64,000 nucleotides of DNA from the human T2T-CHM13v2.0 reference genome, Homo sapiens, in assembly GCF_009914755.1 (NCBI RefSeq), contig NC_060946.1; one strand, 5' to 3'. Under the pieces are notes generated by a model. It worked only from the letters and a program-made list of their open reading frames with translations, was not told the DNA's origin and searched no databases. The position numbers and the translations under genes were made by a program. Every line of letters starts with the position of its first letter. Within the stretch, counting starts at the first letter, position 1. Positions 10,153-41,481 of the stretch are shown here, in pieces.

Positions 10153-10296
10153 CACTGTTTTTTTCTTACAGTCTTACTTGTTTCCCTGTTGCATCCCTAT
10201 TATGGAGATGAGTTAAAGAGAACAATTGTTTGCACACGTGCAGGCATTTAGGAGTTACCTGATGCCACCCACTATGGTAGTCTCCCTGCTTGCTGT
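10153..10296 (+). pseudogene. SGLT-like exon 12, 5' part (start approximate)
   Basis: CIPIMEMS*REQLFAHVQAFRSYLMPPTMVVSLLAV vs SGLT1 [36 protein letters not shown]; TAA at 10214-10216; 5' end degraded. Confidence 0.85.
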
Positions 10297-10509
10297 TACA
10301 AACCAAACTAAAATGTTAAGCCCTCCAACTGACTGATGGACCCCCCAGCCAGCCAAGGGCATTCCAAAGTAAAGCTGAAAAACCAGTTCAGGCTATTATG
10401 GAAAGTGGTGGGGGTCGGGGAAAGGTGGGACATACCTCATTATATCATCCTGTCTTTGGAATTCATGCACAACTGACCAGCATTATCATTAAAAGAGATT
10501 TTTAAGATT

Positions 10510-10809
10510 GGCAGGGCATGGTGGCTCATGCCTGTAATCCCAGCACTTTGGGAGGCCGAAGTGGGTGGATCACCTGAGGTCAGGAGTTCAAGATCAGCCT
10601 GGCCAACATGGTGAAACCCCGTCTCTACTAAAAATACAAAAATTAGCCAGGCATGGTGGTGTGTGCCTGTAATCCCAGCTACTTGGGAGGCTGAAGCAGG
10701 AGAATCGCTTGAACCTGGGAGGCAGAGGTTGCAGTGAGCCGAGATCACGCCACTGCACTCCAGCCTGGGCAACAGAGTGAGACTCCATCTCAAAAAAAAA
10801 AAAAAAAAA
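10510..10809 (+). repeat. AluSx-like inside the MER4 5' LTR
   Basis: Full dimer; short TSD 'aagatt'. Confidence 0.95.
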
Positions 10810-11498
10810 GATTAACAGTATAGATTTTTTTGTAGCAATAAGACACCAGATTCCAGCCTGACACTAGTATAGCATCACATGATGGATAGCAGGCCCTGAG
10901 ACAAACCAAAGTATTTTATCCCCAAAATATATTTATTTGACATATTTTGAAATGACCCTGCAAAGCTGTCTCTCATGGGGGAAATCTGAATTCTGTAGAG
11001 AATTCCCTGTTCTTCACAGGTCTTTCCCTTGATCCAGGAGAAAATTATCTAAGAGCCTGGCATGTTTTTTGGTCTGATAAGAGCTCTGAAGCCTGCTACC
11101 TGGAGGCTTCACCTGCGTGATAAAACCTTGGTCTCCACAACCCTTTATCTGAACCCAGACATTCTTTTCTATTGATTCCAGGTCTTTAGATAATAACTCT
11201 TTTAACCAATTGCCAATCAGGAAATCTTTGAATCTGCCTATGACCTGGAAGCCCCTCCACCTTTCCTGCTTTGAGTTGTCCCACCTTTCTGGACTAAACC
11301 AATGTACATCTTACACATATTAATTAATGTCTTATGTCTCCCTAAAATGTGTAAGACCAAGCTGTGGCTTGACCACCTTGGGCACATGTTCTCAAGATAT
11401 CCTGGGGCAGTGTCACAGGCCATTGGTCACCCATACTTGGCTCAGAATAAATATCTTCAAATATTTTACAGAGTCTGACTCTTTTTATCAACAATAAT

Positions 11499-11516
11499 TG
11501 GCACCCAACATCGGGC
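11499..11516 (+). other. Primer-binding site, tRNA-Lys(CTT)-like
   Basis: TGGCACCCAACATCGGGC vs TGGCGCCCAACGTGGGGC (15/18; two differences are CpG transitions), just after the LTR 'CA'. Confidence 0.7.
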
Positions 11517-39633: not shown

Positions 39634-41052
39634 CAAATTAAATTTAACAGAGTTTAATTGAGCAAAGAACAATTCATGAATCAGGCAGCCTCCTGAGCCA
39701 GAATAGGCTCAGGGAGACTCCAGTACAACCACATGGTGGAAGAAGATTTATGGACAGAAAAAAGAAAGTGGCATACAGAAAACAAAAGTGAGGTAAAGAA
39801 ATGGCCAGGTTGGGTACAGCCTAGCATTTGCCTTATTTGAACATGGTTTGAACAATTGGCCCCCTTTAACTGGACAAAACTCAGTGGTTGGCACAAGAGT
39901 AGGTTACAGTCTGTTTACACCTCCATTTAGGTTATAGTTCATTATGTAGAGAAACTTTTAAGACAACGTTAAAATATGTAAGGAGGCAACTTTAGGTTAA
40001 ACTTCATTTAACTGCTGTGTGGGATGGCATTTGTGCCTTTGGGCTGTGGGGTTGAATGACCAGCTGCTTTTTCCAGACTGGCTCCCACACCTCTTAGGTC
40101 CCAGAGGCTGATAATGGTATAATTAATGGGCATTTGAGAATAGAGGCAAGGATGTGGTCCTCAGGACTTCTCAGTCCCAGCATAGGCTATCTGTGTTCCT
40201 GCCCCTCCCCTTGTAACAGAGGCTCCTCTGTCCCTGTCTGATGAGTTCCTTCATTTCTGCTTCCTCCTCAGCCTCTGCTGCAGGGGTGGGAACACAGGAG
40301 ACACTGGCATGGAGGCTGCCCAGCAGGATGACACCCAGAAGACGTCACAATGCACACTGCTGGGAGCCCGATCTGAATGAACACAGGGTCGTCTCATCTT
40401 CCAGGAGGGAATGATTCCCAGGAGCTGACCATGGTACTAAGCCAGGTAAGCAGGCCTCAGGGGACAGGCCAGCGCTGCATGGACATCTGGGTGATGTTCA
40501 AGCCCCTCAGTTAGGTGTTTCCCCTAGTTTGGCCTAGAGAAGTGAATGGCAACCTCCCTGTGATTTCTAGGCTCTCCTCCTGGACAGCACCAAAAATGTG
40601 CCTTCAAGGGCCCCAGGACAGCCTTACTGTGGGCCAAGTGCAGTGAAACTGGGAGTTGCCTCGAGAAGACACTCCCCAAGAGATTGCCAAAGAGAATGGT
40701 GCCTATTTCCATGACTCAAAGGGCTTCCTCTGTCCTCCAAAGAGCGGTGTTTGGAGCGTAGAGGTGAAATGTTCAGAGGATCAGGGACCATCTGCCCTAG
40801 ACCCATAGGGACAGAGAAGGGTGAGCAATTACTGCAGCACCCCAGGGAGGGTCAAGTTCTTGTAACACCACCTCCGCCGGCCAGTTACAGGGATCTGGGC
40901 ATGCTAAGGTCAGTTCTTTCTTATTAAGAGTAAGCCCATGGGTCTTCACACTGGACTCGTGGAGGCTGAGATGTTGTGAGTCCCTACACAGGCTTCCCTC
41001 CTGTGCCATGGCCTGCCTGCCTCCTGACCTTTGCCTATTCCCTCTGTTCTAG

Positions 41053-41355
41053 ATGTAGGCAAGGAGACCAAGAGCTGCACCTGGATGATCTGGGACATGT
41101 TCTGTGGACTGGAGTCAGGAGGGCCCCAAAGTGGCCCCAGCAAAGGCAACAGAGGAGGTAGAGCATGGTGACACGTTGCAAAGTGCAAAGGCGCTGGCCC
41201 TGGGAGAGGCAACTGAGAAAGTAGAGGTTGCTGAGAAGACGGAAGGTACAGAGTGGGGCAACATGTCAGACAATCCCTACTGGAGGAGAGTTGTGGGCAT
41301 CAGTGGGATCATCCTGATCATGCTCAAGGTCCTTGGCGTCATCTACTTTGCCTGA
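41053..41355 (+). pseudogene. SGLT-like terminal exon 15 (frameshifted)
   Basis: Acceptor 'ccctctgttctag|', phase 1; KSCTWMIWDMFCGLE, frameshift at ~41115, QEGPKV...MSDNPYWRRVVGISGIILIMLKVLGVIYFA* vs SGLT1 [22 protein letters not shown]...[30 protein letters not shown]. Confidence 0.9.
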
Positions 41356-41475
41356 AGCAGCTGGGCTGGGGCCGTCCAGGAGGAGGCAGAGCTGCTGCTT
41401 CTCCAGGATCATCATGAACAGGGACAAAGCGTTTCCTACTGGGAGACCCATGGGCCTGGGACCAAGGATTACATT

Positions 41476-41481
41476 AATAAA
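41476..41481 (+). terminator. Candidate polyadenylation signal of the SGLT-like relic
   Basis: AATAAA 120 nt after the TGA, followed by GT-rich 'tgttcccttggtgtc'. Confidence 0.5.

What the first reader, a model, noticed from the sequence alone, without database searches (positions are those of the whole stretch)
10153..41481. Hidden intron-containing fossil of a lost sodium/glucose cotransporter (SLC5/SGLT) gene
Seen in sequence: four + strand segments between repeats (10153-10296 joined to 19392-19416; 20855-21070; 24648-24750; 41053-41355) translate to QLF..VQ...SYLMPP...FCKRVIEQ, GAFW...SCMENSN...ISLLTDPTPD, LHQLCWSL...EETVDQDAE and DMFCGLE...PYWRRVV..GIILI...YFA*. Intron phases are compatible and an AATAAA follows the stop. 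Established knowledge (recalled): these match SGLT1/SLC5A1 exons 12-15 in order; exon 13 is 72 codons in both, and the C-terminus is ...AYFA*. Inference: the peptides are far from both SLC5A1 and SLC5A4, and introns are retained, so this is not a retrocopy or a recent duplicate. It looks like a distinct ancient SGLT paralogue that died in the primate lineage (candidate unitary pseudogene). Mouse Gm5134, which I recall as an SLC5-family predicted gene, is one candidate orthologue. Exon 11 and earlier are not visible here.
Basis: partly seen in the sequence, partly recalled or inferred. Interest (0 to 1): 0.92.

Follow-up and report, generated by a model that had tools for sequence, protein, structure and literature searches.

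The report
Dead human SGLT1-like (Gm5134) transporter gene
This stretch of human chromosome 22 holds the broken remains of a sodium/sugar transporter gene that mice, a lemur, pigs and whales still carry, one more gene lost on the way to humans and of moderate interest.

Summary
On the + strand, window 10171-41355 carries four intron-separated pieces that match human SGLT1 residues about 441-664 in order. The strongest is exon 13, E 6.7e-11.

They are not copies of SLC5A1 or SLC5A4. In trees the relic sits inside the mammalian 'SGLT1-like / Gm5134' clade with 100/100 support, next to mouse lemur. Grouping it with SLC5A4 is rejected, AU p 3e-60.

Six more exons lie 0.8-29 kb upstream of the window. 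Exons 8-11 are missing from the locus.

A copy of exon 8 survives 580 kb away. It lies beside an old inverted duplicate of the gene's 3' end and the 3' end of RSPH14. A 1-kb copy of exon 13 lies on chromosome 12.

The gene is dead:
- A 9.1-kb LTR element splits exon 12.
- There are in-frame stops, a frameshift and four lost splice sites.

No intact copy was found in the genome. The verdict is a unitary pseudogene. It is absent from RefSeq (hub table) and from the papers I searched. I could not check GENCODE.

The parts
1..10170 (+). The in-window part of the 11-kb gap between exon 7 (outside the window, C22:23435087-167) and exon 12. Exons 8-11 (hSGLT1 residues about 222-440) should lie here, but no match was found in any frame.

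Parts of the same dead gene that lie OUTSIDE the window and so cannot be given rows of their own:
- Exon 2: C22:23407283-354.
- Exon 3: C22:23413562-666.
- Exon 4: C22:23417017-076.
- Exon 5: C22:23431107-211.
- Exon 6: C22:23433666-768, with two in-frame stops.
- Exon 7: C22:23435087-167, with the donor GT changed to GG.
- Exon 1: not found.
- A copy of exon 8: C22:24057561-24057785 (+), corresponding to hSGLT1 222-291. Its acceptor is intact, the frame is lost near the 3' end, the donor is AT, and its flanks are single-copy.
10171..10293 (+). Exon 12, 5' part. It corresponds to hSGLT1 residues about 441-475. The AG acceptor is intact, there is an in-frame TAA at 10214-10216, and the start is about 8 codons shorter than in relatives.
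10294..19387 (+). LTR-bounded retroelement inserted in exon 12. The 5' LTR runs 10294 to about 11493 and carries a later Alu at about 10465-10847. The 3' LTR runs 18535-19387. The ends are TG...CA, a polypurine tract precedes the 3' LTR, and no target-site duplication is recognisable. LTR-LTR K2P is 0.178. No Pfam domain was found in 33 of its 71 ORFs of 45 aa or more.
19388..19416 (+). Exon 12, 3' part (MFCKRVIEQ). The GT donor is intact. It joins the 5' part with one base too many.
20855..21070 (+). Exon 13: 72 open codons with AG and GT sites intact. It corresponds to hSGLT1 residues 484-553. A genomic copy of window 20623-21659, with this exon, lies at C12:107795965-107796754 (-).
24648..24750 (+). 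Exon 14 (LHQLCWSL...). The acceptor is GG and the donor is AT, so both splice sites are lost.
41053..41355 (+). Exon 15. The AG acceptor is intact. There is a frameshift near 41110 (after ...FCGLE). It carries the family-specific acidic insert, the last membrane helix, and TGA at the native stop position.
41476..41481 (+). AATAAA, 121 bases after the stop codon.
25072..51717 (.). Five blocks: 25072-26180, 40014-40444, 46046-46688, 49685-50525 and 50870-51717. Their only other copy in the genome lies inverted and collinear at C22:24053543-24057474, ending 86 bases before the exon 8 copy. The blocks include the last RSPH14 exon. K2P is 0.181 over 3775 sites.

Best explanation
Window 10171-41355 (+) is the 3' end of a unitary pseudogene. 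It is the dead human orthologue of the mammalian gene called Gm5134 in mouse and 'sodium/glucose cotransporter 1-like' elsewhere.

**What the living gene is.** It is a close relative of SGLT1 and SGLT3 in the SLC5 sodium/solute symporter family. It has an extra acidic stretch before the last membrane helix.

**Layout of the human relic.**
- It spans about 70 kb, C22:23407283-23477355.
- It lies between the immunoglobulin lambda constant genes and RSPH14, tail to tail with RSPH14.
- It keeps exons 2-7 and 12-15 in order, with their introns.

**Why it cannot make a transporter.**
- Exons 8-11, about 220 residues of the core, are deleted from the locus.
- A 9.1-kb LTR element splits exon 12.
- Exons 6 and 12 carry stop codons.
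- Exon 15 is frameshifted.
- Four splice sites are lost.

**History (inferred).** Three old events each show copies about 17-18% diverged:
1. The LTR insertion.
2. A 1-kb copy of exon 13 placed on chromosome 12.
3. An inverted partial duplication of the region made up of the gene's 3' end and the 3' end of RSPH14, placed 570 kb distal. This duplicate preserves the only surviving exon 8.

This puts the decay at roughly 40-75 million years ago, after the split from lemurs.

**Shown versus inferred.** Homology, clade membership, the lesions and the duplicates are shown. The dates, the order of events and the absence of any residual role are inferred.
For: **Homology.**
- SGLT1 is the top PDB hit for each of the four window pieces and for exon 8, in collinear order.
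- The family profile hits 11 collinear exon pieces at the main locus, plus exon 8 at E 9.3e-28.
- Exons 3, 5, 7 and 8 each hit only PF00474, at profile positions 13-47, 69-101, 138-163 and 166-217 (4 of 5 exons scanned).

**Clade.**
- The C-terminal exons sit in the G clade at 100/100, sister to Microcebus at 82/46 (45 rows, 243 columns).
- The N-terminal exons sit in the G clade at SH-aLRT 100.
- Exon 8 is sister to Microcebus at 83.
- The AU test rejects relic plus SLC5A4, p 3e-60.
- C-terminal identity is 55% to Sciurus and Microcebus, 43% to human SLC5A1 and 40% to ape SLC5A4.
- The relic shares the family-only insert '...EHGD...LA.GEAT.K.EV...' and 'GNWTAK'.

**Lesions.**

**Unitary status.** Searches of the whole genome with P0012 and P0009 gave 46 and 67 matches. 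All lie in seven paralogue loci, in this relic, or in dead fragments.

**Duplicates.**
- The exon 13 copy on chromosome 12 has K2P 0.167 in both exon and flanks, so the exon was unconstrained. Both copies share an odd extra codon.
- The inverted duplicate exists as exactly two copies in the genome and contains RSPH14-like pseudo-exons.
- The LTR belongs to a dispersed family with full-length matches.

**Living orthologue.** Gm5134 mRNA is spliced in mouse testis (PMC6345566, passages read).
Against: - Three of the four window exons are individually weak against PDB (E 0.06-0.26).
- Pfam found nothing in the six C-terminal fragments.
- Sister placement with the lemur is only moderately supported (82/46 and 83).
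- The exon 8 tree has only 70 columns, and a long SLC5A11 branch intrudes into the G clade.
- For the N-terminal exons, the single highest identity is to human SLC5A1 (58%, but over only 95 conserved columns).
- Synteny with mouse Gm5134 could not be tested. From recall, the mouse gene lies beside Vpreb3, not Rsph14. PMC9614664 says only that mouse Vpreb3 is flanked by an SLC5 gene.
- The lemur protein (517 aa, from one source only) is a prediction and may itself be incomplete.
- Whether the relic is transcribed is unknown.
- RefSeq lists enhancer elements over the end of exon 15 (hub table).
Confidence: 0.9

Rival explanations
1. Exon 8 is 580 kb away because a balanced rearrangement cut it out of the gene. 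The candidates are inversions or a transposition with breakpoints in introns 7 and 11. On this view the gene died by chromosome breakage, and exon 8 is not a leftover of a duplicate copy.
For: - The main locus stops at profile position 196 and the distal exon starts at 197, so the two are exactly complementary.
- Apart from the inverted duplicate and repeats, no sequence is shared between the distal exon's flanks and the main locus.
- The junction 86 bases upstream of exon 8 joins inverted intron 14 sequence to forward intron 7 and exon 8, as an inversion inside the gene would.
Against: - The sequence next to exon 8 is itself a duplicate: it exists in two copies and includes RSPH14 pseudo-exons. 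The distal site therefore received copied DNA.
- A second small copy, exon 13 on chromosome 12, shows that this locus did shed copies.
- Simple one- or two-inversion models do not reproduce the observed order and orientation (my own reasoning).
- A single surviving exon has a 4 in 15 chance of being one of those deleted at the main locus.
Confidence: 0.3
2. The segments are a duplicated, non-unitary pseudogene derived from SLC5A1 or SLC5A4.
For: - SLC5A1 and SLC5A4 lie on the same chromosome.
- Several dead SLC5A4-like fragments exist elsewhere in the genome.
- The best PDB hits are to SGLT1, but no Gm5134-type structure exists in PDB for comparison.
Against: - The relic sits in the G clade at 100/100.
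- The AU test gives p 3e-60 against grouping it with SLC5A4.
- Identity is 12-15 points lower to SLC5A1 and SLC5A4 than to the best G members.
- The relic carries the family-only C-terminal insert.
Confidence: 0.02
3. The relic still does something. It might be a non-coding transcript, or a regulatory element reused from exon 15 and its 3' UTR.
For: - RefSeq functional-element rows list enhancers at 41303-41442 and 41453-41502, over the end of exon 15 and its 3' flank (hub table, not tested here).
- Exon 13 is still an open 72-codon frame.
Against: - Exon 13 and its intron flanks have diverged equally from the chromosome 12 copy, K2P 0.167 for both. There has been no constraint on the coding sequence.
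- Lesions occur in most exons.
Confidence: 0.07

Closest known systems
Mouse Gm5134 ('solute carrier family 5 (sodium/glucose cotransporter)-like') and its 'SGLT1-like' relatives in rodents, hare, mouse lemur, suids and whales
   Same: - It belongs to the same clade.
- It has the same exon layout.
- It has the same acidic insert before the last helix, and the motifs GNWTAK and LH.LCWSL..SQEE.
   Different: - The human copy is dead and dismembered.
- The living genes encode predicted proteins of 600-730 aa.
- The mouse gene is transcribed and spliced in testis (PMC6345566).
- No transport function has been reported in the papers I saw.
Human SLC5A1 (SGLT1)
   Same: - It has the same fold family and the same exon boundaries, with a 72-codon exon 13.
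- It ends in ...YFA and a stop at the same place.
   Different: - It lies in a separate clade.
- Identity over the C-terminal exons is 43%.
- SGLT1 lacks the acidic insert.
Human SLC5A4 (SGLT3)
   Same: - It lies on the same chromosome and is a close paralogue.
- It is the source of several dead fragments elsewhere in the genome.
   Different: - Identity to the ape protein is 40%.
- Grouping it with the relic is rejected, AU p 3e-60.
Human unitary pseudogenes as a class (Zhang et al. 2010, PMC2864566)
   Same: - It is a single-copy gene with living orthologues in other mammals.
- It was disabled in place and keeps its introns.
   Different: - It is not in that paper's main-text table: 'chr22' and 'Slc5' each occur 0 times.
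- The supplement could not be opened.
- Unusually, parts of the dead gene were also copied elsewhere.

Membership tests
SLC5 / sodium:solute symporter family (Pfam PF00474) | Match to the SSF profile | tested here: inconclusive
   Exons 3, 5, 7 and 8 each hit PF00474 alone, at 16-20 bits, in collinear profile order. Each is below the 22.8-bit cut-off (4 of 5 exons scanned). The six C-terminal fragments gave no SSF hit. By recall, this part of SGLT1 lies mostly beyond the Pfam model.
SLC5 / sodium:solute symporter family (Pfam PF00474) | Collinear similarity to a solved SGLT structure | tested here: met
   The pieces match hSGLT1 residues 222-291 (E 1.4e-20), 451-475, 484-553 (E 6.7e-11), 551-579 and 620-664.
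SLC5 / sodium:solute symporter family (Pfam PF00474) | Sodium- and sugar-binding residues of the core helices | not testable with these tools
   Much of the core, exons 9-11, is absent from the genome.
Gm5134 / 'SGLT1-like' orthologue group | Branches inside the group, apart from SLC5A1 and SLC5A4 | tested here: met
   Support is 100/100 for the C-terminal exons and SH-aLRT 100 for the N-terminal exons. Exon 8 is sister to Microcebus at 83. The AU test gives p 3e-60 against SLC5A4.
Gm5134 / 'SGLT1-like' orthologue group | Acidic insert between the ...FCGLE motif and the last helix | tested here: met
   The alignment shows the insert in the relic and in Sciurus, Mus, Microcebus and Phacochoerus. 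It is absent from SLC5A1, SLC5A4 and SLC5A2.
Gm5134 / 'SGLT1-like' orthologue group | Conserved gene neighbourhood with the mouse, lemur or pig gene | not testable with these tools
   No non-human mammalian genome is on hand. PMC9614664 (passages read) says that mouse Vpreb3 is flanked by an SLC5 gene, and that SLC5A4 and SLC5A1 flank the lambda locus in artiodactyls.
Unitary (unprocessed) pseudogene | Disabling lesions | tested here: met
   The lesions are stops in exons 6 and 12, a frameshift in exon 15, an LTR element in exon 12, four lost splice sites and the absence of exons 8-11.
Unitary (unprocessed) pseudogene | Introns retained | tested here: met
   The exons are spread over 70 kb with recognisable AG and GT sites.
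Unitary (unprocessed) pseudogene | No intact copy of the same gene in the genome | tested here: met
   Searches gave 46 and 67 matches, all in seven paralogue loci, in this relic or in dead fragments. The search tool states that weak matches may be missed.
Unitary (unprocessed) pseudogene | Functional orthologue in other species | tested here: inconclusive
   Sources name 31 mammalian predicted proteins of this type. Mouse mRNA is seen in testis. No protein-level or transport data were seen.

The most novel reading that the evidence does not exclude
The dead gene marks an evolutionary breakpoint. Roughly 40-75 million years ago a burst of events hit the junction between the lambda locus and RSPH14:
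- an LTR insertion;
- an inverted duplication that now brackets the 570-kb block from RSPH14 to BCR and beyond;
- an internal inversion junction joining intron 14 to intron 7;
- a copy sent to chromosome 12.

On this reading the rearrangement itself, rather than point mutations, killed a testis-expressed sugar-transporter gene in the ancestor of monkeys and apes. The inverted pair would be the scar of an inversion that built the present human 22q11.23 gene order.
Probability: 0.25. Interest if true: 0.55.

Novelty: new member of a known kind. Interest (0 to 1): 0.42.

Why it matters
- **Gene content differs between mouse and human.** Humans have seven SGLT-type genes (SLC5A1, 2, 3, 4, 9, 10 and 11). 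Mice and many other mammals have an eighth close relative of SGLT1 that is almost unstudied. Showing that the human counterpart is a fossil explains why the gene is missing from human SLC5 lists. It also matters when mouse data on SGLT biology or SGLT inhibitors are carried over to people, and it gives a dated example of transporter gene loss.
- **The fragments record local chromosome history.** They also record old rearrangements at the edge of the immunoglobulin lambda locus and the RSPH14-BCR region.
- **Scale of the finding.** Unitary pseudogenes number in the hundreds, so this is a solid but modest addition.

Tried and rejected
- **Pfam on the six C-terminal fragments.** No SSF hit.
- **First Pfam call.** It failed on a stop codon in my coordinates. 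I corrected it.
- **Protein Atlas look-up with the squirrel C-terminus.** Only unnamed clusters came back, nothing usable.
- **L1 3'-transduction as the carrier of exon 8.** Dropped for two reasons. The sequence upstream of exon 8 has no poly-A. It also proved to be a two-copy duplicate of the RSPH14 and gene 3' region, not a repeat.
- **The stretch 'NKMTGYHG' just after exon 7.** It looked like the start of exon 8, but the similarity does not continue. I took it as chance.
- **A profile hit upstream of exon 2** (C22:23397689-817, E 0.05). It has no DNA similarity to exon 12. I took it as chance.
- **'FFLTVLLVSLL' before exon 12.** It overlaps the polypyrimidine tract and acceptor, so I do not claim it as coding.
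- **Other SLC5-like fragments as homes for exons 9-11.** The fragments on chromosomes 18 (two), 1, 11 and 5 are closest to SLC5A4, not to this gene.
- **Gene content around the distal exon.** 99 of the 177 ORFs of 85 aa or more (those of 105 aa or more) gave no Pfam family, so the context there is not named.
- **LTR element interior.** 33 of its 71 ORFs of 45 aa or more gave no Pfam family, so its class is not settled. The primer-binding site looks lysine-tRNA-like only by recall.
- **Literature searches.**
  - 'Gm5134': 5 papers, none on the human locus.
  - 'unitary pseudogene' plus 'cotransporter': 2 papers, unrelated.
  - 'SLC5', 'pseudogene', 'SGLT3', 'phylogenetic': 2 papers, general.
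  - 'glucose cotransporter 1-like': 0 papers.
  - One search had a malformed term.
- **Rows left out of the trees.** Of the 31 mammalian G-type rows, 19 were used. I left out P0003, P0007, P0018, P0019, P0021, P0022, P0023, P0024, P0027, P0029, P0030 and P0051 as partial, chimeric or redundant. Thirteen of the 120 listed SLC5A4 rows were used.
- **First hand-in of this report.** It was returned because three part rows lay outside 1-64000. Those places are now described in the text of the first part row.
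Full report
**1.

All coordinates are window coordinates unless marked C22.

| Piece | Window | Best PDB hit (human SGLT1) | E-value |
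|---|---|---|---|
| Exon 12, 5' part | 10217-10293 | residues 451-475 | 0.26 |
| Exon 13 | 20855-21070 | residues 484-553 | 6.7e-11 |
| Exon 14 | 24648-24750 | residues 551-579 | 0.22 |
| Exon 15, end | 41089-41352 | residues 620-664 | 0.058 |

Exon 13 is an open 72-codon exon with AG and GT at its ends. The other three pieces are short and weak singly, but SGLT1 is the best hit each time and the four are collinear.

A profile of 23 family proteins was searched against 164 kb in six frames. It gave 13 hits with E under 5. Eleven are collinear + strand exon pieces of the main locus, one is the exon 8 copy, and one is an odd hit.

The stop codon is at the native place and AATAAA follows at 41476-41481.

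**2. What the pieces belong to**

A search with exon 13 in the large protein collection returned two naked mole-rat 'sodium/glucose cotransporter 1(-like)' proteins.

A second search, with the C-terminal half of one of them, listed 49 proteins. Thirty-one are mammalian proteins that the sources call SGLT1-like, 'Gm5134 protein', 'putative gene 5134' or 'solute carrier family 5 (sodium/glucose cotransporter)-like'. They come from rodents, a hare, one primate (Microcebus), a warthog and whales. The other 18 are non-mammalian SGLT1.

Scored against the window, squirrel and mouse lemur are the best queries (248 and 244 summed bits).

An alignment shows features shared by the relic and this family but not by SLC5A1, A4 or A2:
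- an acidic insert before the last helix;
- the motif GNWTAK;
- the motif LH.LCWSL..SQEE.

Trees give the following placements:

| Part of the relic | Data | Placement |
|---|---|---|
| C-terminal exons | 45 rows, 243 columns, careful search | Inside the family at 100/100; inside its Euarchontoglires part at 96/95; beside Microcebus at 82/46 |
| N-terminal exons | quick search | Inside the family at SH-aLRT 100 |
| Distal exon 8 | 70 columns, quick search | Beside Microcebus at 83 |

A tree forcing the relic together with SLC5A4 is 92.9 log-likelihood units worse, AU p 3e-60.

The tree rows were built as follows:
- Human SLC5A1 exons were read from the genome. The SLC5A1 exon 13 read from locus L005 matches the SGLT1 chain shown.
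- My names for the SLC5A2, A3, A9 and A11 loci rest on recalled chromosome positions.

**3. The rest of the gene**

The genome that holds the window can be searched. Two family queries, local tblastn and the profile found further exons on the + strand upstream of the window:

| Exon | C22 position | Note |
|---|---|---|
| 2 | 23407283-354 | |
| 3 | 23413562-666 | |
| 4 | 23417017-076 | |
| 5 | 23431107-211 | |
| 6 | 23433666-768 | two in-frame stops |
| 7 | 23435087-167 | donor GT changed to GG |

- Exon 1 was not found.
- The ATP5PFP2 processed pseudogene of the hub table lies in intron 2.
- Between exon 7 and exon 12 are only 11 kb, with no trace of exons 8-11.

**4. Lesions**

- **Exon 12.** It is cut exactly at the TG...CA ends of a 9.1-kb element bounded by two LTRs of about 0.85 kb.
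  - The LTR is a dispersed family. At least 40 copies were scored and many match over positions 1-853.
  - The two LTRs differ by K2P 0.178.
  - No retroviral domain was found in 33 of its 71 ORFs.
  - The exon halves abut with one surplus base, and no target duplication is visible.
  - Exon 12 also has an in-frame TAA.
- **Exon 14.** It has lost both splice sites.
- **Exon 15.** It needs a frame change after ...FCGLE.

**5. Exon 8 and the inverted duplicate**

The best-preserved piece of the gene is not at the locus. It lies at C22:24057561-785 on the + strand. This is 580 kb distal, beyond RSPH14, GNAZ and RAB36 (hub table) and, by recall, BCR.

- It matches hSGLT1 residues 222-291 at E 1.4e-20, and the family profile positions 197-268 at E 9.3e-28.
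- Exon 7 at the main locus ends at profile position 196, so the two are exactly complementary.
- Its acceptor is intact. Near its 3' end the frame is lost, and the donor is AT.
- Its own flanks are single-copy.

Immediately upstream, ending 86 bases before the exon, lie 3.9 kb that form an inverted, collinear copy of five window blocks: 50870-51717, 49685-50525, 46046-46688, 40014-40444 and 25072-26180.

- Two of the blocks were searched genome-wide, and each has exactly these two copies.
- The copy contains RSPH14-like pseudo-exons. The last exon shows 59% amino-acid identity at E 4.6e-25, with one stop.
- Divergence is K2P 0.181 over 3775 sites.

The distal site therefore holds an old, inverted, much-deleted duplicate of the tail-to-tail region formed by the gene's 3' end and the 3' end of RSPH14. 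At its end, inverted intron 14 sequence is joined to forward intron 7 and exon 8.

I read exon 8 there as a survivor of copied DNA, and the original as lost with exons 9-11 at the main locus. A cut-and-paste rearrangement is not excluded; it is the first rival.

**6. A copy on chromosome 12**

C12:107795965-107796754 (- strand) is a genomic copy of exon 13 with its intron flanks.

- K2P is 0.167 in the exon (216 sites) and 0.167 in the flanks (258 sites). The exon has been free of constraint since the copy was made.
- Both copies share an extra codon and changes at otherwise conserved residues. This hints that decay had begun before the copy was made.

**7. Dating (inference)**

Three independent pairs are 0.17-0.18 apart: the two LTRs, the chromosome 12 copy and the inverted duplicate. 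With recalled neutral rates of 1.2-2.2e-9 per site per year, this gives about 40-75 million years.

Two other observations fit a loss after the split from lemurs:
- The relic's terminal branch (0.56) is twice that of the lemur (0.28).
- No monkey or ape protein appeared among the 31 family rows, although many monkey and ape SLC5A4 proteins are in the same collection. That search is word-based, so this is weak evidence.

**8. Unitary status and other fragments**

Whole-genome searches gave 46 and 67 matches. They fall in:
- seven paralogue loci;
- this relic;
- fragments on chromosomes 18 (two), 1, 11 and 5, which are closest to SLC5A4;
- the chromosome 12 copy.

No intact gene of this type was seen.

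**9. Known or new**

- RefSeq lists nothing here (hub table).
- The papers found by five searches do not describe it.
- The main text of the 2010 unitary-pseudogene survey has no chr22 or Slc5 entry. Its supplement could not be opened.
- GENCODE and TOGA could not be consulted and may already flag it.
- PMC6345566 (passages) shows Gm5134 mRNA in mouse testis.
- PMC9614664 (passages) reports an SLC5 gene beside mouse Vpreb3, and SLC5A4 and SLC5A1 beside the lambda locus in artiodactyls. This fits an old SLC5 cluster next to the lambda locus.

**10. Verdict**

This is a real, well-supported unitary pseudogene of a little-known SGLT1-like gene, and a new member of a known kind. Its dismembered state and the inverted duplicate are the only unusual features.

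Noticed in passing
C22:24053543-24057474 (outside the window, about 618 kb beyond its start), paired with window 25072-51717: An inverted two-copy duplication brackets about 570 kb that holds RSPH14, GNAZ and RAB36. The distal copy carries RSPH14-like pseudo-exons on the + strand at C22:24055393-635 and 24054275-404. The copies are 73-85% identical.
   Followed up: yes
C12:107795965-107796754 (- strand; locus L031): This is a genomic (not processed) copy of the relic's exon 13 with its intron flanks, 81-82% identical. How a 1-kb piece reached chromosome 12 is unexplained.
   Followed up: partly
Loci L026 and L027 (chr18), L028 and L029 (chr1), L030 (chr11), L032 (chr5): These are dead SLC5-like fragments that score best with SLC5A4. 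The chr11 fragment runs across several exon junctions without introns, so it looks like a processed copy. The two chr18 fragments are near-identical exon 9-like pieces.
   Followed up: partly
window -24865..-24540 (hub table): The ATP5PFP2 processed pseudogene lies inside intron 2 of the relic.
   Followed up: no
window 41303-41442 and 41453-41502 (hub table): RefSeq 'enhancer' elements overlap the last-helix coding part of exon 15 and its 3' flank up to the AATAAA.
   Followed up: no
C22:23397689-23397817 (+), 10 kb upstream of exon 2: A profile hit (E 0.05) reads '...VVWIPKIELAESE...', like the missing start of exon 12. It has no DNA similarity to exon 12, so it is probably chance.
   Followed up: partly
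C22:24027001-24087000 (loci L015-L020): This region has 177 stop-free stretches of 85 aa or more in 60 kb. Ninety-nine of them, those of 105 aa or more, were scanned and gave no Pfam family. The region's gene content was not identified.
   Followed up: partly
window 10465-10847: An Alu-like repeat was inserted into the 5' LTR of the element that splits exon 12, so it is younger than that element.
   Followed up: no
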